Below, in pieces: positions 1-64,000 of a stretch of 64,000 bases of DNA. Origin of the DNA: Methanobacteriota archaeon (GTDB taxonomy: Archaea > Thermoplasmatota > E2 > DHVEG-1); assembly GCA_963769885.1 (NCBI GenBank), contig CAVYNH010000007.1:320001-384000 (forward strand), read 5' to 3'. A program made the position numbers and the translations under genes. Under the pieces are notes generated by a model. The model had not been told where the DNA came from and did no database searches. It was given only the letters and a program-made list of their open reading frames with translations. The stretch's first letter is position 1. Each line of letters opens with the position of its first letter.

Positions 1-500
1 CGGCGAACAACACCACCTTCATCCAAGGACCAAACACCAATGACATGCGCAAATTCCGCAACGGCGACCGCCTCCCCATCTGCGTCGTTAGCGGCTGCCA
101 CAACTGCCAGTTCGACGTCTGCCTCCGCCGCGGCCTGAACGCGACCCTCCGCTGGCGACAGGAATACATCCCCGAATGCTGGGGCGAACGCTCCCTCTCC
201 ACCCGCAACGACGGCATGGTCGGCACCATCGGCGTCACCGGCCTCGGCTATACCAAAGAAGACAAACACTCCTTTAAAGGCGGCATCAACGAACTCGAAG
301 TCGCCTTCTTCACCGCCTACGGCCACAACCACAGCCTCCGCCTCGGCGACGCCTGGGCCGCAGCCGTCACCTGGTATACTCACACTTACCCCGTCGACCC
401 CGCCTCCCCCGGCGGCACCGACACCTGGATCGACTCCAAAGTCGCCAGCTCCTGGATCCTCCTCGGCGACCCCAGCCTCCAACCCGGCGGATACCCCTAA
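1..500 (+). CDS. C25 (gingipain-like) cysteine peptidase, C-terminal part, truncated by the window edge
   Basis: Frame is open from base 3; LPICVVSGCHNCQFD catalytic-Cys context, CWGE, and terminal WILLGDPSL typical of C25. Confidence 0.75.
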   Translation, partial: ANNTTFIQGPNTNDMRKFRNGDRLPICVVSGCHNCQFDVCLRRGLNATLRWRQEYIPECWGERSLSTRNDGMVGTIGVTGLGYTKEDKHSFKGGINELEVAFFTAYGHNHSLRLGDAWAAAVTWYTHTYPVDPASPGGTDTWIDSKVASSWILLGDPSLQPGGYP

Positions 501-566
501 AGAACCACGACCGCCTCTCCTGGCCTACGGATAGATTTAAAAAAGGAGACCTTCTTACTGTCTGCC

Positions 567-782
567 ATGACGCTTCCACTCGACGTCCTGGAGAAATCGG
601 TGAACCAAAAAGTCAGCCTCCTCCTCAAGGACGGCCGCCACATCGAAGGCAAGCTCCTCGGCTTCGACGAATACATGAACCTCGTCCTCGACGAAGTGGA
701 AGAATCCAAAGACGACACCAAAAAACGCCTCGGCCGCATCATCCTACGCGGCAGCAACGTCGTCAGCGTATCCTTTATATAG
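567..782 (+). CDS. lsm: Sm-like (Lsm/SmAP) protein
   Basis: Sm1 motif G.L.GFDEYMNLVL and Sm2 motif IILRGSNV; 71 aa. Confidence 0.95.
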   Translation: MTLPLDVLEKSVNQKVSLLLKDGRHIEGKLLGFDEYMNLVLDEVEESKDDTKKRLGRIILRGSNVVSVSFI

Positions 783-973
783 CCCGTCCCTTCCGAAAAA
801 AATATAAAGGGGTATCGCTTATTTACTCGTGGAAGGAATTGGGCTGGTAGTTGTTGTTTTGTTAGAGTGCATCCCATCCCCTCCTAGTGAGGCCAGCCGT
901 CCTTCCCTTTTTCATACCATCCGTCTACAAACTTTTTAACACCACACACCATTTCTCTCCCACGACCTGACCT

Positions 974-2641
974 ATGCCCCGGACCATCACCGCCCAACGC
1001 GGCACCACCCTGCGCTGCCACAGCTGGAAACAAGAAGCAATCCTGCGCATGCTCGAAAACAACCTCGAAAACGCAGAACTCCCCGACGATCTCATCGTCT
1101 ACGGCGGCACCGGCAAAGCCGCACGCACCTGGGACTGCTACGACGCTCTCGTCACTACACTCCAAAACCTCGCCGACGACGAAACCATGCTCGTCCAATC
1201 AGGAAAACCCGTCGCCGTCTTCAAAACCTGGCCCACCGCCCCCCGCGTCCTCATCGCCAACGCCAACCTCGTCCCCCACTGGAGCGACTGGGACCACTTC
1301 CGCCAATACGAAGCCCTAGGCCTCACCATGTACGGCCAAATGACCGCCGGCTCCTGGTGCTACATCGGCACCCAAGGCATCATCCAAGGCACCTACGAGA
1401 CCTTCGCCGCCTGCGGCCAAAAACACTTCCACAGCGACCTCTCCGGCCGCATCGTCCTGACCGGCGGTCTCGGCGGTATGGGCGGCGCCCAACCCCTCGC
1501 CGTGACCATGAACCACGGCGTCTGCCTCGCCGTCGAATGCGACGAACACCGCATCGACCGCCGCATCAACGACGGCTTCTGCGACCGAAAAACCACGGAA
1601 ATTGCCGAGGCCGTCGACCTCGTCCAACAAGCCGCAGCGGACCACAAATCCCTTTCTATCGGCCTGCTCGGTAACTGTGCCGATGTCCTCCCACAACTCG
1701 TCAAAGAAGGATTCCATCCTGACATCGTCACAGACCAGACCTCCGCCCATGACGAGCTCAACGGATACGTCCCAGTAGGATTCGCCGGCAAGACGCTTCC
1801 TGAAGCGATGAAGCTTCGAAAGACGAACCCTGAGGAGTACATCGCTCGGTCCCTGCAAAGCATGAAGCAACACTGCAAAGCCATGCTTGATTTCAAAAAG
1901 AAAGGCTCAATCGTCTTCGATTACGGCAACAACCTCCGCGGCCAGGCTCAACGAGCGGGCCTGAAAACCGCGTTCTCATACCCCGGCTTCGTCGCCGAAT
2001 ACATCCGACCCTTGTTCTGTGTCGGCCGCGGCCCCTTTCGATGGATCGCGGTCACAGGGAACCCGGATGATATCAAGAAGACTGACGCCCTTGTCCTTGA
2101 CATGTTCCCAGAGAACTCAGTGCTCGTGAACTGGATCCGCCTCGCACAAAAGCATATCCCCTGGCAGGGGCTGCCGGCAAGGGTCTGCTGGCTCGGCTAT
2201 GGCGAACGGAAGAAGTTCGCACTCGCCATCAACGCGTTAGTTAGGGCTGGCGAAATCGGACCGATAGCCATCACCCGGGACCATCTGGACACCGGCAGCG
2301 TCGCCTCCCCCTACCGAGAGACCGAGGGGATGCGGGATGGTAGCGATGCAATTGCGGACTGGCCACTTCTCAATGCGCTGGTGAACTGCGCCGCGGGCGC
2401 GGATAGCGTCCATATCCACAACGGCGGCGGGGTCGGCATTGGTTTATCCACCCATGCCGGGATGGTGGTCGTCTGCGACGGCTCTGCCCAGACGGATGAG
2501 CGGATCGCCCGGGTGTTCACCACTGACCCGGGGATCGGGGTGGTTCGTCACGCCGATGCAGGGTACCCAGAGGCCCTTGACATGGTTGCTCGTTCTGATC
2601 TGAATCTGCCCATGCTTGCATGCCGGAAGAAAGAGAAATAG
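974..2641 (+). CDS. hutU: urocanate hydratase
   Basis: [61 protein letters not shown]. Confidence 0.97.
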
Positions 2642-2818
2642 AATCGCATTCATCGCTTTTTTCGTAGAGAAATCGAAAGAAATAAATACAAGCAATGACA
2701 AATAATAACATGGGTAGGAATGATGACCGCTCAACTATTGCTTACGTACACCTCGGGACGCCTCTATAATCTGGGTCTTTTTGCACTGTACGTCTATACC
2801 TACGTGCCTTTCTGAGTT

Positions 2819-62840: not shown

Positions 62841-62971
62841 ACCGAAGGAGGGTAATTCACTTCCCCCTCAAAAAAGTTCGCCAAAGAATGATCCCCCATA
62901 TGGGAGGAGCCGGCAGGGCTAAAATAAGGCTTGTACAATAAAATATAAGAACCTCGATTCCTCTTGGGTAC

Positions 62972-63313
62972 ATGATGCCCGCACGAAAGAAGCGATCACC
63001 ACGGGAAAACACCCCGGTTCCCCCAGAACCCATCCTCGAGACACAACAGACACGCCCGACCATCGTAAAGATCATCCCTACCGCTCCTACCCCTGAAAAA
63101 AAGAACCCGAGGATTAAGTTCCCATCCCTCAACATCGTATCAGTGTCTGCCCTGCAGAAGCTTCGCTACCTGGTCGCCCTCATCTTCCTACTCAGCACCC
63201 TGGCCTTTGCCTTGGCCTTCGTCAACTTCCCCATCGCCCTAATCTTCATTCTCATCAGCTACGTCCTTCTCCTGGGACTTCTGTTCAAACTCTTCACGAT
63301 CAAGCATCTATAA
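62972..63313 (+). CDS. hypothetical membrane protein
   Basis: Pro/Lys-rich N-terminus, two C-terminal TM helices. Confidence 0.55.
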   Translation: MMPARKKRSPRENTPVPPEPILETQQTRPTIVKIIPTAPTPEKKNPRIKFPSLNIVSVSALQKLRYLVALIFLLSTLAFALAFVNFPIALIFILISYVLLLGLLFKLFTIKHL

Positions 63314-63377
63314 AAAATGGACGATATCAAAAATAAAAACCATCACATTTTAATAATGGCTAACGTATGCTTGGTCC

Positions 63378-63713
63378 ATGCAAAAGGAGAACCTGTCGAA
63401 GCCCGAAGAGGTTACCTCTTTTCTTAAACTCCCGGTCTACACCCGCGAAGGACTCTACGTGGGACACGTCAAGAACGTCTTCTTGGAAATCGAGGAAAAA
63501 CGCGTCGGAAGCCTCCTTGTCACCAACACCAACCCGTCCCTCGTCGAAGGTAGCGTCGACATCGCCGTCCCCTACCGCTGGGTCAACTCCGTCGGCGATA
63601 TCATCATCCTCTCAAACTTCCCTGGGAAGATCGTCACCAAGAAAAAAGATAAAGAACCCAGGAAGAAAGAGGGACAACCCGAGGGCGAAGCGAAAATCGA
63701 CCAAATCGAATAA
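63378..63713 (+). CDS. PRC-barrel domain protein
   Basis: VYT..G.YVG.V.......L, VPYRWV..VGDII. Confidence 0.85.
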   Translation: MQKENLSKPEEVTSFLKLPVYTREGLYVGHVKNVFLEIEEKRVGSLLVTNTNPSLVEGSVDIAVPYRWVNSVGDIIILSNFPGKIVTKKKDKEPRKKEGQPEGEAKIDQIE

Positions 63714-63927
63714 AACACCGCATCTCACCTCATTCAATTCCTCTGTTTTTTCCTTTATATCCTTGATTAAGGGAAAACATTTTTATAGCCACAAAGATAT
63801 TTTATACGATAGATAGATAGAAAAGGAAAAGGATTTGATAGAGGGAAAAAACAAGAATTGTACAACAAACCTTAAATACTCTGAAGGGTAAAATAAACCC
63901 TGAACAAGAAGTAAACCTGGTGGAAAA

Positions 63928-64000
63928 ATGAACCGTCCGAAGACAATCAAAGCAAGCGTCGTGACCGCCATCCTCCTTGGAAGCTTTCTCTTCAGCATCG
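63928..64000 (+). CDS. 5' end of a secreted protein, truncated by the window edge
   Basis: MNRPKTIKASVVTAILLGSFLFSI signal-like; open to the end of the window. Confidence 0.5.
   Translation, partial: MNRPKTIKASVVTAILLGSFLFSI

What the first reader, a model, noticed from the sequence alone, without database searches (positions are those of the whole stretch)
1..64000. Kilobase-scale oscillating strand skew (C/A vs G/T) that partly ignores gene orientation
Seen by eye: the + strand alternates between strongly C/A-rich blocks (about 1-1.7k, 18.2-20.9k, 29.1-29.9k, 37.2-43.1k, 51-53.8k, 61.1-63.7k) and G/T-rich blocks (about 3-7.4k, 22.7-25.3k, 30.5-32k, 35-35.6k, 45.5-50.7k, 55.1-59k). Coding-strand bias alone does not explain it. 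arcC and the DRG GTPase (minus) and DUF1614 (plus) have G/T-ending codons while most genes have C/A-ending codons. Within hutU, the 29137 metalloprotease, the ABC permease and the HMGCS-thiolase cluster, third-position usage drifts from C to G/T along the gene. Established: prokaryotic GC/keto skew normally flips only at replication origins and termini. Inference: a regional strand-asymmetric mutation process with ~5-15 kb domains, such as many preferred replication starts, or transcription- or chromatin-domain-linked ssDNA damage.
Basis: partly seen in the sequence, partly recalled or inferred. Interest (0 to 1): 0.7.

Follow-up and report, generated by a model that had tools for sequence, protein, structure and literature searches.

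The report
Sawtooth strand-skew domains in an archaeon
In this uncultured archaeon, silent DNA positions are driven almost wholly to C/A on one strand and G/T on the other in blocks of about 13 kb that often ignore gene direction, the footprint of a strong local one-strand DNA process that I found described in no paper.

Summary
At four-fold degenerate sites the + strand swings between 100% C/A and 100% G/T within this window (sd 0.53; 0.11 expected by chance).

- **Gene strand:** it explains 36% of the variance here and 28% genome-wide.
- **Mirror-image codon classes:** Pfam-confirmed genes fall into two classes. Sua5 has third positions C .83, G .02. DRG GTPase has G .63, A .02. Ribosomal protein genes in one co-directional cluster belong to both classes.
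- **Reach:** the skew extends into spacers and shifts amino-acid composition.
- **Pattern:** about 135 cycles, median 13 kb, with no replichore-scale skew. Sharp keto-to-amino resets lie at promoter-bearing intergenic regions and return gradually.
- **Relatives:** a same-genus genome keeps the polarity gene by gene although silent sites are near saturation. Only 4 of 25 sampled relatives show the pattern.
- **Origins:** the only two exact ORB-like motifs lie upstream of one orc1/cdc6 gene, so many canonical origins are unlikely.

Codon selection, gene strand alone and classical replication skew are rejected. My best guess (about 0.4) is repeated DNA-end resection and refilling at hot intergenic sites, filtered by the G/T-only mismatch nuclease NucS. 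The scan reported this phenomenon before on other parts of this genome (e1-5607256, e1-5607047).

The parts
1..2000 (.). Amino (C/A)-rich half-domain on the + strand. It covers + strand genes including the first two thirds of hutU (974-2641).
   Evidence: K4 (4-fold keto skew, + strand reference) is -0.84 to -0.45. hutU is confirmed by Pfam.
2000..3000 (.). Gradual amino-to-keto crossing at the convergent 3' ends of hutU(+) and gene 2819-4342(-).
   Evidence: K4 runs -0.24 then +0.32. hutU thirds are -0.82/-0.45/-0.03.
3000..7500 (.). Keto (G/T)-rich half-domain on the + strand. It covers - strand C/A-type genes including M28 peptidase 4449-5765.
   Evidence: K4 is +0.35 to +1.00. Pfam M28 hit.
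7644..16500 (.). Flat, lower-GC stretch with almost no skew. It holds a giant NosD/PKD surface protein gene (7644-14606, -) and an IS200-like element (repeat copy 15572-16305; transposase ORF 15666-16190, -).
   Evidence: K4 is mostly -0.06 to +0.4 and GC is 0.45-0.50. Pfam hits. It is one copy of a 10-copy repeat family.
16500..22500 (.). Amino-rich block on the + strand that ignores gene direction. The + genes 16615-17262 and PCMT 20275-20916 are C/A-type. The - genes DRG 17999-19126, amino-acid kinase 19178-20254 and 20913-21428 are G/T-type.
   Evidence: K4 is -0.53 to -0.94 across both orientations. Pfam hits. Third positions of DRG are G .63, A .02. The same signs are found in congener G001.
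22500..25600 (.). Keto-rich half-domain on the + strand, covering - strand C/A-type genes.
   Evidence: K4 is +0.43 to +0.84.
25600..28700 (.). Low-GC island (GC 0.35-0.39) with a TIR-domain defence-like gene 26101-27264(-), plus the unskewed gene 27575-28726(-). It sits at a keto-to-amino reset.
   Evidence: The flanks are +0.71 and -0.1, followed by -0.62 at 29.0k.
29137..30996 (+). Single conserved gene that flips from C/A-ending to G/T-ending codons along its length.
   Evidence: k4 by thirds is -0.68/-0.09/+0.31. It shares 69% amino-acid identity over 614 residues with G001. No Pfam family.
31018..32013 (-). LPG-synthase-TM gene, C/A-type, forming the keto plateau before a reset.
   Evidence: K4 is +0.62 to +0.86. 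Pfam hit.
32013..32314 (.). Sharp keto-to-amino reset in a divergent spacer (GC 0.43).
   Evidence: The step detector gives delta -1.10 at 32200.
32314..35602 (+). Short domain made only of + strand genes, drifting from amino to keto. The ABC-2 permease 34436-35602 is G/T-type towards its 3' end.
   Evidence: K4 runs from -0.27 to +0.40. Pfam hit. Thirds are +0.15/+0.17/+0.41.
35602..35938 (.). Reset containing tRNA-Ile (35782-35855, -).
   Evidence: K4 changes from +0.40 to -0.31. tRNA found by ARAGORN and Rfam.
35938..44979 (.). Long amino-rich block with secondary down-steps at about 38.8k and 42k. It fades to zero over the HMGCS-like and thiolase genes. The PAS gene 36669-37073(-) inside it is G/T-type.
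   Evidence: K4 is -0.31 to -0.86, then -0.07. Pfam hits.
45479..50525 (.). Keto-rich block. The - genes are C/A-type. DUF1614 49327-50052(+) is G/T-type.
   Evidence: K4 is +0.24 to +0.73. Pfam DUF1614 hit.
50525..50950 (.). Sharp keto-to-amino reset. It lies in the over-long 5' end of ORF 50520-51773, whose DUF7121 match starts at residue 129.
   Evidence: Step delta is -1.00 at 50925. Pfam hit.
50950..53800 (+). Most extreme amino block: DUF7121, MBF1-like HTH 51833-52318, Sua5/YrdC 52323-52913 and M24 peptidase.
   Evidence: K4 is -0.65 to -1.00. Sequence read directly. Pfam hits.
53800..55100 (.). Gradual crossing at convergent gene ends.
   Evidence: K4 is -0.17 to +0.27.
55095..59004 (-). 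Keto-rich block on the + strand, made of C/A-type - strand genes.
   Evidence: K4 is +0.50 to +0.94.
59100..60975 (-). Two unskewed genes with low GC3 (0.50) and no Pfam family. They lie where the polarity changes from keto to amino.
61117..64000 (.). Amino-rich block. The - strand genes phosphoribosyltransferase and PLP decarboxylase are G/T-type and are followed by C/A-type + genes.
   Evidence: K4 is -0.24 to -0.56. Pfam hits.

Best explanation
SHOWN: the skew is a DNA-level, position-dependent pressure, not a codon preference. In each domain of about 13 kb one strand is driven towards C (and A) and its complement towards G (and T). This happens at four-fold sites, two-fold sites, spacers and even first and second codon positions, whichever way the genes point. 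A strand-symmetric rise in GC accompanies it. Polarity resets sharply from keto to amino (read left to right on either strand) at a subset of promoter-bearing, AT-richer intergenic regions, and returns over 2-3 kb in mid-domain.

INFERRED, my preferred mechanism: these intergenic regions are recurrent sites of DNA breakage or nicking. 5'-to-3' resection leaves the strand that points towards the site single-stranded for a few kb, where C and A deaminate. The complementary strand, which points away, is resynthesised. The organism has the mismatch endonuclease NucS/EndoMS, which cuts G/T, G/G and T/T but not C/A mismatches, and no MutS was found. Errors that place A or C in the new strand therefore survive. 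The strand pointing away from the site becomes C/A-rich on both sides. Recombination-linked GC-biased repair would supply the GC rise.

Genes mostly point away from these sites because the sites are promoters. Genes that point towards one become G/T-type.
For: Position rather than gene:
- Opposite-strand neighbours correlate at r=+0.47 in + strand reference.
- Gene strand gives R2 0.28 genome-wide and 0.36 in the window.
- About 40-45% of divergent and convergent junctions show no flip.
- Within 2 kb left of divergent resets, genes of both orientations have the same K4: +0.33 to +0.61 against +0.48 to +0.62.
- Co-directional runs go from -0.9 to +0.9.

Not selection or expression:
- L3 and L19e are C/A-type, but S5, L30 and S2 in the same + strand cluster are G/T-type.
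- EF1A and EF2 are only moderately skewed.
- Spacers follow their flanks, r=0.78 and slope 0.33.
- Thr, His and Asn against Val, Glu, Arg and Gly shift up to 2-fold between the two classes.
- The two classes are complementary: C .85/A .08 against G .86/T .08. Two-fold sites give C .93 and A .68 against G .90 and T .57.

Persistent and positional:
- Congener G001 keeps the sign in 64 of 66 strongly skewed orthologues, and in 13 of 14 G/T-type genes with conserved neighbours.
- Four-fold identity is only about 0.5 there.
- G/T status is mostly lost in the other-genus genome G015.

Resection reading:
- Sharp steps are 72 to 31 (16 to 1 for the strongest) in the polarity seen experimentally at resected breaks, where top-strand C is mutated on the left and G on the right (PMC6786661).
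- The orientation-independent reach of about 2-4 kb matches the resection lengths quoted there.
- GC4 is .86-.90 on the plateaus.74 at crossings and .61 where there is no skew.
- Low-GC inserted segments sit at resets 10 times and at crossings 0 times (p=0.002). Five of 8 scorable IS copies have keto on the left and amino on the right (two of them weakly) and 1 has the reverse.
- NucS is present and MutS was not found. NucS specificity comes from PMC6159521.
Against: - No break, resection or recombination was observed. The mechanism rests on polarity, length scale and association.
- NucS is also present in relatives without the pattern, so it cannot be sufficient.
- Simple cytosine deamination would make the exposed strand T-rich, yet it is G-rich (G .86, T .08). 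A separate strong GC pressure is needed, which I estimate at about 1 log-odds unit by hand from the figures.
- Averaged over all tandem promoter-size gaps, the upstream gene's 3' end stays C/A-type at -0.27, so most promoters are not bidirectional sources.
- The middle of reset spacers is unskewed and the skew starts about 75-100 bp upstream of start codons. That equally fits a process starting at transcription start sites.
- In some domains the skew is not strongest next to the reset (C4 282-294k; window 17-19.5k).
- No shared sequence motif marks the resets.
Confidence: 0.4

Rival explanations
1. Transcription-linked asymmetry. Mutation or repair differs between template and non-template strands, starts at transcription start sites and fades along transcription units. 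G/T-type genes lie under stronger antisense or read-through transcription from neighbouring promoters. A self-reinforcing R-loop variant is also possible.
For: - 57% of genes have C/A-rich coding strands, 19% are G/T-type and 25% are neutral.
- Resets lie at gene 5' ends: 45 of 72 are divergent and the rest are mostly tandem with large gaps.
- Skew begins about 75-100 bp upstream of start codons, and the spacer centre is unskewed.
- There is a weak but significant 5'-to-3' decay: +0.11, 61% of genes, p=4e-14.
- A - strand tRNA-Ile lies at the 35.7k reset, with keto skew on the + strand to its left, which is its downstream side.
Against: - The canonical polarity is the opposite: non-template deamination should make coding strands G/T-rich.
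- Ribosomal protein genes S5, L30 and S2 are G/T-type although they lie in a co-directional, presumably highly transcribed cluster.
- The extremes are ordinary genes such as Sua5, while EF1A and EF2 are moderate.
- Downstream of 14 tRNA genes that face an opposing gene, that gene stays C/A-type on its own strand (mean +0.20 in tRNA-strand reference).
- 19% of genes would need dominant antisense transcription.
Confidence: 0.22
2. Dispersed replication initiation. Forks start every 13 kb or so at open intergenic regions, without canonical ORB sites, for example by recombination- or transcript-primed initiation. They terminate in mid-domain, so skew follows fork polarity as in human N-domains, with the leading strand C/A-rich.
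For: - The shape is a sawtooth or N-domain: sharp jumps, a gradual return and plateaus (PMC2764438).
- Among skewed genes, about three in four are co-oriented with the outward direction.
- The one ORB-bearing, orc1-adjacent spacer is itself a reset of the same polarity and overrides a - strand gene on its right: +0.81 to -0.42.
- In Haloferax volcanii a mapped origin coincides with a local maximum of third-position and non-coding cumulative GC skew, which is the same polarity (PMC12999951).
Against: - The exact ORB-like motif occurs only at that one spacer, and one-mismatch hits equal the control.
- About 135 origins in 2 Mb would be unprecedented for an archaeon.
- There is no replichore-scale skew around the ORB origin (40-kb means within 0.16 of zero), so forks from it leave no trace.
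- The amplitude is more than ten times that of any replication skew I know of (own knowledge).
- GC4 dips at crossings, which suggests decay rather than pure mixing of two fork directions.
Confidence: 0.15
3. Ordinary causes only: codon-usage selection, amino-acid content and coding-strand bias, with strength varying from gene to gene.
For: Most genes prefer C/A-ending codons, and the sign often follows gene strand (R2 0.28-0.36).
Against: - A mirror-image G/T class makes up 19% of genes.
- Polarity flips within genes.
- Spacers are skewed.
- Ribosomal proteins fall in both classes.
- Opposite-strand neighbours share polarity.
Confidence: 0.02
4. Assembly, binning or sequencing artefact, such as chimeric contigs or chemically converted reads.
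For: The genome is a metagenome-type draft of 7 contigs. One contig begins with a 9.7-kb inverted duplication that may be an assembly artefact.
Against: - Reading frames and Pfam domains are intact through the skewed DNA.
- The changes are concentrated at silent sites.
- A separately held congener genome shows the same polarity gene by gene.
- Two other genera in the family show the same GC/TA skew coupling.
Confidence: 0.02

Closest known systems
[quoted passage not shown] 2021, PMC8256042)
   Same: - GC and TA skews are intense and positively correlated (the keto/amino axis).
- Both polarities occur on one strand within about 1 kb.
- The skew is strongest at third codon positions and sits inside functional genes.
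- The amino-acid shift is of the same kind. Gly and Val are enriched in keto regions, and Thr, His and Pro in amino regions.
- The mechanism is unknown, and a link to recombination or gene conversion is suspected.
- GRINS are commonest in Streptomyces. Actinobacteria, the phylum it belongs to, have NucS and lack mutS (PMC6159521), and NucS has been studied in Streptomyces (PMC11109965, title and abstract only).
   Different: - GRINS are by definition duplicated segments (over 500 bp, over 80% identity) inside PKS clusters.
- Here the skew tiles the whole chromosome in unique DNA, and only 6 repeat families exist in the genome.
- It forms an ordered sawtooth anchored at intergenic regions.
- It reaches 100% at four-fold sites.
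Human skew N-domains bordered by master replication origins (Audit et al. 2009, PMC2764438)
   Same: - The skew profile is a sawtooth between fixed sites lying in open, promoter-rich DNA.
- Jumps are sharp and the return is gradual.
- Genes are organised around the borders.
   Different: - The human borders are upward jumps, which by my own knowledge means a G/T-rich leading strand. The jumps here run the other way.
- The human domains are far larger and their amplitude about ten times smaller (own knowledge, not read here).
- In this genome only one ORB-type origin candidate is present.
Replication-associated GC/keto skew of bacteria and some archaea (PMC3269012; PMC12999951)
   Same: - Complementary strands differ at silent and non-coding sites.
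- Genes tend to be co-oriented with the favoured direction.
- The Haloferax Ori3 third-position skew has the same sign as the resets here.
   Different: - Classical skew flips only at origin and terminus and spans replichores. Here 40-kb means are near zero and there are about 135 cycles.
- Paravel et al. [quoted passage not shown] This genome is a stark counter-example at local scale.
Strand-switching mutation clusters at resected double-strand breaks in yeast (Sakofsky et al. 2019, PMC6786661)
   Same: - The polarity matches: the top strand loses C on the left of the break and G on the right.
- The tracts are 2-4 kb, up to tens of kb.
- The effect is independent of gene direction.
   Different: - Those are single events in single cells under an added deaminase or mutagen.
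- Here the pattern is an evolutionary equilibrium, with G rather than T dominating the exposed strand.
- No break sites have been demonstrated here.

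Membership tests
Classical replication (origin/terminus) skew | Polarity switches only at origins and termini and persists over whole replichores. | tested here: not met
   There are 135 keto-to-amino and 135 amino-to-keto switches with a median spacing of 13 kb. 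40-kb means of K4 lie within 0.16 of zero along contigs of 392-785 kb, including around the ORB-bearing spacer at C6 261.7k.
Classical replication (origin/terminus) skew | Switch points carry origin hallmarks: ORB repeats, an AT-rich unwinding element and an adjacent orc1/cdc6 gene. | tested here: not met
   These are met at one site only. Two ORB-like repeats flank an A/T run upstream of orc1/cdc6 at C6 261745 and 261903. There is no other exact copy, and one-mismatch hits (23) match the control (22). No k-mer marks the resets.
Transcription-associated strand asymmetry | The sign of the skew follows gene orientation. | tested here: inconclusive
   This holds for the majority, but R2 is only 0.28-0.36. 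19% of genes are reversed, and 40-45% of divergent and convergent junctions do not flip.
Transcription-associated strand asymmetry | The non-template (coding) strand is enriched in G+T, and the effect grows with expression. | tested here: not met
   Coding strands are mostly C/A-rich. Ribosomal protein genes fall in both classes, and EF1A and EF2 are moderate. Expression itself was not measured.
Translational codon-usage bias | One preferred codon set, strongest in highly expressed genes and confined to coding positions. | tested here: not met
   There are two mirror-image codon sets. Spacers are skewed. Flips occur within genes.
GRINS | Mean absolute GC and TA skews above 0.15, positively correlated and strongest at third positions. 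| tested here: met
   In the window the sd of GC skew is 0.24 and of AT skew 0.19, with correlation 0.76. Four-fold sites reach +1 and -1.
GRINS | Segments over 500 bp that are duplicated, with over 80% identity to another region of the same cluster. | tested here: not met
   A self-megablast at 85% identity or more and 400 bp or more finds only 6 repeat families (an IS family, one inverted duplication and four pairs). The skewed DNA is unique.
Skew N-domains | N-shaped profile between fixed sites, with sharp jumps and a gradual return. | tested here: met
   Sharp steps are biased 72 to 31 (16 to 1 for the strongest) towards one polarity. The meta-profile shows plateaus of about 0.78 either side and a crossing 2-3 kb wide.
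Skew N-domains | The jump sites are active replication origins. | not testable with these tools
   This needs read-depth or origin mapping. The motif evidence argues against canonical origins.
Resection-associated strand-switch mutagenesis | The top strand loses C on the left and G on the right of the initiating site, over kb-scale tracts, regardless of genes. | tested here: met
   Reset polarity and a 2-4 kb orientation-independent reach, compared with PMC6786661.
Resection-associated strand-switch mutagenesis | Physical breaks and resection occur at the sites. | not testable with these tools
   There is only indirect support. Low-GC insertions lie at resets 10 times and at crossings 0 times. 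Five of 8 scorable IS copies have keto on the left and amino on the right (two of them weakly) and 1 has the reverse.

The most novel reading that the evidence does not exclude
The sawtooth records an undescribed, locally initiated, one-directional DNA transaction. It starts about every 13 kb at open intergenic regions and rewrites one strand for several kb. Candidates are promoter-anchored recombination-dependent or transcript-primed DNA synthesis, possibly the main way this lineage copies or repairs its chromosome. In combination with a keto-only mismatch nuclease it would drive silent sites, and partly the protein composition, to strand-specific extremes.
Probability: 0.3. Interest if true: 0.95.

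Novelty: new variant of a known kind. Interest (0 to 1): 0.8.

Why it matters
- **It challenges a recent claim.** Strand compositional skew is the standard sequence-only read-out of replication and transcription. A 2026 survey concludes that archaea barely generate strand-specific mutation (PMC12999951). Here an archaeal lineage shows a far stronger local strand asymmetry than any I know of (own knowledge), up to 100% at silent sites, with no replichore signal.
- **It points to an unknown DNA process.** If the cause is a repair, recombination or initiation process anchored at promoters, the pattern is a genome-wide, evolution-integrated map of that process in an uncultured organism. It may also explain GRINS-like skews in NucS-using Actinobacteria.
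- **It has practical consequences.**
  - Two mirror-image codon usages in one genome will mislead gene callers, because long shadow ORFs occur on both strands.
  - They will also mislead codon-adaptation and expression predictors, detection of horizontal transfer, binning by composition and origin prediction by skew.
  - The pressure also reshapes protein composition, shifting Thr, His and Asn against Val, Glu, Arg and Gly.

Tried and rejected
- **Motif at resets.** I compared k-mers of 5-8 bases in 103 reset spacers with 367 non-reset spacers. Only A/T-rich, promoter-like words came up, at p around 1e-4 to 1e-5 before correction. No specific site or palindrome was found, unlike the GGCC/AGGCCT anchors reported for other genomes.
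- **ORB motif as a marker of many origins.** Exact copies occur only at the orc1 spacer, and one-mismatch hits are at control level.
- **Live mutation spectrum from repeat copies.** The only multi-copy family is an IS200-like element of about 710 bp with 10 copies, and most copies are identical to the consensus. Two diverged copies lean the expected way (17 to 10 and 10 to 1), but the numbers and the local skews are too small to use.
- **Read-through from strongly transcribed tRNA genes as the cause of G/T-type genes.** There is no general effect downstream of the tRNA genes scored (41 of 44). Only a modest shift of 0.2-0.4 appears on both sides.
- **Candidate enzymes by presence or absence in 30 relatives.** NucS is present in all four genomes with the pattern but also in many without it. 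MutS and Y-family polymerase were not found in any member of the family. None is discriminating. A full proteome profile could not be run, because only G000 can be laid in the script box.
- **Polarising substitutions with an outgroup.** The nearest genome beyond the genus (71% identity in the DRG protein; other family members average about 60% across orthologues) is saturated at silent sites.
- **Local inversions as natural experiments.** No gene flipped relative to both conserved neighbours in the 0.5 Mb of G001 and 0.39 Mb of G015 that I fetched.
- **Bisulfite-like or chimeric artefact.** Rejected, because proteins are intact and the pattern is shared with other genomes.

Full report
**Setting.** The window is G000:C7:320001-384000 of a 2.09-Mb, 7-contig draft genome with 55% GC. 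Earlier notes of this scan call the organism an uncultured Thermoplasmatota archaeon. I did not test the taxonomy. No gene caller was available, so I wrote a self-trained ORF caller that uses a four-class codon mixture. It called 1490 genes covering 79% of the genome. I checked the orientation of every gene that matters here with Pfam. K4 below means (G+T-A-C)/n at four-fold degenerate sites in + strand reference. k4 is the same measure in coding-strand reference.

**The observation.**
- At four-fold sites the swing is nearly complete: +1.00 at 5.0-5.5k (89 sites) and -1.00 at 52.0-52.5k (82 sites). The sd over 112 bins is 0.53, against 0.11 for independent sites.
- Reading the DNA directly shows what this means. 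The MBF1-like and Sua5 genes at 51.8-52.9k use almost one codon per amino acid, always ending in C or A. Their third positions are C .70-.83 and G+T at most .05.
- The DRG GTPase and the amino-acid kinase, both on the - strand, are the mirror image: G .63-.64, T .18-.22, A .02-.05.
- The pattern is genome-wide. The sd of 1-kb keto skew is 0.21.
- Of 1424 genes of at least 100 aa, 804 are C/A-type (k4 below -0.2), 270 are G/T-type and 350 are neutral. In the window the counts are 27, 8 and 10.

**Gene strand does not explain it.**
- Gene strand accounts for R2=0.28 of 1-kb K4 genome-wide and 0.36 in the window.
- Adjacent genes on opposite strands have positively correlated + strand skew (r=+0.47). 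Among strongly skewed pairs, 143 of 230 are one C/A-type and one G/T-type gene, and only 2 are both G/T-type.
- About 35-45% of divergent junctions and 45% of convergent junctions show no change of K4.
- Runs of co-directional genes go from -0.9 to +0.9.
- In the window, the block 16.5-22.5k is C/A-rich on the + strand across two + genes and four - genes. Gene 29137-30996 flips inside its own reading frame.

**It is not selection on codons or expression.**
- In the main ribosomal protein cluster (C4 271.9-288.2k, all on the + strand), L3 and L19e have K4 of -0.9. S5, L30 and S2 have +0.17, +0.42 and +0.65. All are Pfam-confirmed.
- EF1A and EF2 are only moderately skewed, while the extremes are ordinary genes.
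- Short spacers (40-400 bp, n=419) follow their flanks with r=0.78 and slope 0.33.
- First and second codon positions and amino-acid usage shift too: Thr 9.4% against 4.8%, and Val 5.3% against 9.6%.
- The two states are exact complements: C .85, A .08, G .03, T .03 against G .86, T .08, C .04, A .02.
- Two-fold sites show the same axis through transitions alone. C/A-type genes have C .93 at pyrimidine-ending sites and A .68 at purine-ending sites. G/T-type genes have G .90 and T .57.
- By hand, from those figures, two pressures fit: a strand-symmetric GC pressure of about 1 log-odds unit and a strand-asymmetric keto/amino pressure of about 1.2-1.7. This is my inference.

**Geometry.**
- With hysteresis at +0.4 and -0.4 there are 135 full cycles. 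The median spacing is 13.4 kb, with an interquartile range of 9.4-17.2 kb.
- Autocorrelation of K4 is negative at a 5-kb lag, while that of gene strand is not.
- Sharp steps are strongly polarised. Keto-to-amino steps outnumber the reverse 72 to 31 at a change above 0.9, 39 to 8 above 1.1 and 16 to 1 above 1.3. This polarity does not change when the sequence is reverse-complemented.
- Of the 72 keto-to-amino steps, 45 lie at divergent junctions, 15 at tandem junctions and 10 just inside annotated 5' ends.
- Tandem resets are enriched where the gap exceeds 80 bp: 11-16% against 2-3%.
- The return crossing is 2-3 kb wide between plateaus of about 0.78 either side.
- GC4 is .86-.90 on plateaus.74 at crossings and .61 in unskewed DNA.
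- In reset spacers the skew starts about 75-100 bp upstream of start codons, and the centre is unskewed with GC .45.
- Within about 2 kb of resets, genes of either orientation carry the same K4. Further out, the average again follows gene orientation. So the pattern looks like an orientation-linked component plus a positional override near resets.
- Window resets lie at 32.0-32.3k, 35.6-35.9k (with tRNA-Ile) and 50.5-50.9k. Others lie across unskewed, lower-GC accessory DNA at 7.6-16.5k (giant surface protein, IS200-like element), 25.6-28.7k (TIR defence-like gene) and 59.1-61.0k.
- Genome-wide, low-GC segments of at least 1 kb sit at resets 10 times and at crossings never (p=0.002). Random positions give 35 and 45.

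**Relatives.**
- The same-genus genome G001 keeps synteny over 16.6-25.6k and keeps the sign of k4 in nearly every gene. DRG is +0.69 against +0.44, the kinase +0.83 against +0.40 and PCMT -0.73 against -0.42. Shared four-fold sites are only about 50% identical.
- For DRG, chance identity from the two compositions is about .47 (my arithmetic) against .57 observed. Silent sites are therefore near saturation, and each lineage has maintained the polarity itself.
- Over 178 orthologues r=0.69, and 64 of 66 strongly skewed pairs agree in sign. With both neighbours conserved r=0.78, and 13 of 14 G/T-type genes stay G/T-type. Without conserved neighbours r=0.36.
- In the other-genus genome G015, which also has the pattern, G/T status is mostly not retained: 1 of 6 and 3 of 10. 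Polarity is thus a property of place and context, not of the gene.
- Across 25 sampled relatives, coupled GC and TA skews occur only in G001, G014 and G015, besides G000. G005 is marginal. The rest show the usual purine-type, gene-strand skew. All positives are the GC-richer members, but the GC-rich G030 is negative.

**Replication.**
- Two Orc1/Cdc6-like genes exist.
- Upstream of the first (C6 260359-261630, with nucS next door) lies a 749-bp spacer. It has two ORB-like repeats, each containing a match to TTCSAGTGGAAA, flanking a long A/T run. That the repeats resemble the archaeal ORB consensus is my recollection. This is a plausible origin.
- It is the only place in the genome with exact copies. 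One-mismatch hits (23) equal the control (22).
- That spacer is itself a reset (+0.81 to -0.42), and the - strand gene to its right is G/T-type.
- 40-kb means of K4 are near zero on both sides of it. Forks from the canonical origin therefore leave no long-range trace. Either fork direction is not the cause, or most synthesis does not start there.
- A recent survey states that archaeal skews are weak and that archaea have little strand-specific mutation or repair. It also notes that Haloferax Ori3 lies at a maximum of third-position cumulative skew, which is the same sign as the resets here.

**Mechanism.** Three directional processes could give a sawtooth anchored at promoters.
- *Transcription.* It fits the location and the start of the skew. 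It has the wrong canonical sign and must invoke dominant antisense RNA over 19% of genes, including ribosomal protein genes. tRNA genes, a skew-blind sample of strong promoters, give no downstream read-through effect.
- *Dispersed replication initiation.* It fits the shape, the gene co-orientation and the behaviour of the ORB spacer. It needs about 135 non-canonical origins and an unprecedented amplitude.
- *Recurrent breakage or nicking with 5'-to-3' resection and refilling.* It fits the polarity seen experimentally at resected breaks (top-strand C lost on the left, G on the right). It also fits the quoted tract lengths of 2-4 kb (PMC6786661), the independence from gene direction, the coupling of skew with GC enrichment, and the association with inserted DNA.

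The keto/amino axis has a ready biochemical filter. NucS/EndoMS cuts G/T, G/G and T/T but not C/A mismatches (PMC6159521). G000 has nucS and no mutS or Y-family polymerase was found. Uncorrected errors in a resynthesised strand would then be A or C.

This is inference, and NucS also occurs in relatives without the pattern, so another factor is required. I rate resection and refilling at about 0.4, transcription at 0.22 and dispersed initiation at 0.15. That the pressure acts on DNA and depends on position, whatever its source, I rate at about 0.9.

**Known precedents.**
- Full-text searches for archaeal or prokaryotic local, sawtooth or keto skews found nothing equivalent.
- The closest described phenomenon is GRINS (PMC8256042). 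It has the same coupled GC/TA skews, third-position focus and amino-acid effects. It is defined on duplicated PKS segments, a criterion not met here.
- Human N-domains share the shape but not the scale or the sign.
- This scan already reported the same phenomenon on two other windows of this genome (e1-5607256, e1-5607047) and similar sawtooths in other genomes. My tests were run independently and agree with the former.

**Verdict.** I class it as a new variant of strand-skew domains, with an amplitude and organisation without precedent in prokaryotes as far as I could find. The mechanism is unresolved.

Noticed in passing
window 15572-16305 (transposase ORF 15666-16190, -): One copy of an IS200-like (Y1 transposase) repeat of about 710 bp that has 10 copies in the genome. 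Most copies are identical to the consensus, so the element was recently active. Five of 8 scorable copies have keto skew on the left and amino skew on the right (two of them weakly).
   Followed up: partly
window 25600-27500: A low-GC island (GC 0.35-0.39) carrying a 387-aa protein with a CAP12/Pycsar-effector TIR domain (26101-27264, -). It is probably a recently acquired defence gene. The congener's contigs break on both sides of this region.
   Followed up: partly
window 7644-14606 (-): A 2320-aa ORF with NosD/beta-helix and PKD domains, lower GC (0.45-0.50) and almost no skew. It is probably a young or exchanged surface protein gene.
   Followed up: partly
G000 contig C6 259505-262380 (locus L107): nucS lies directly beside orc1/cdc6. 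The 749-bp spacer upstream of orc1/cdc6 carries two ORB-like repeats around a long A/T run. These are the only exact copies in the genome, which makes this the likely canonical replication origin.
   Followed up: yes
G000 contig C1 1-19446: The contig starts with a 9.7-kb inverted duplication (1-9682 against 19446-9767, 98.9% identity, spacer of about 85 bp). This may be an assembly hairpin artefact or a real palindrome.
   Followed up: no
It is conserved in the congener (69% identity), so it is a real gene of unknown family.
   Followed up: partly
window 4125-5711(+), 31006-32004(+), 17828-18682(+), 19394-20149(+): Long shadow ORFs of up to 528 aa lie opposite real genes. Both strands of skewed DNA are poor in stop codons. 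None of these ORFs has a Pfam hit, and naive ORF calling would mis-annotate them.
   Followed up: yes
window 50520-51773 (+): The DUF7121 match starts at residue 129 of the longest ORF, and the codon skew starts there too. The true start is probably near 50.9k.
   Followed up: partly
relatives G014 and G015 (loci L042-L046, L057, L067-L083): Two other genera of the family, with GC 0.43-0.45, show the same positive coupling of GC and TA skews. Most AT-rich members do not. The trait is patchy within the family and tracks higher GC.
   Followed up: partly
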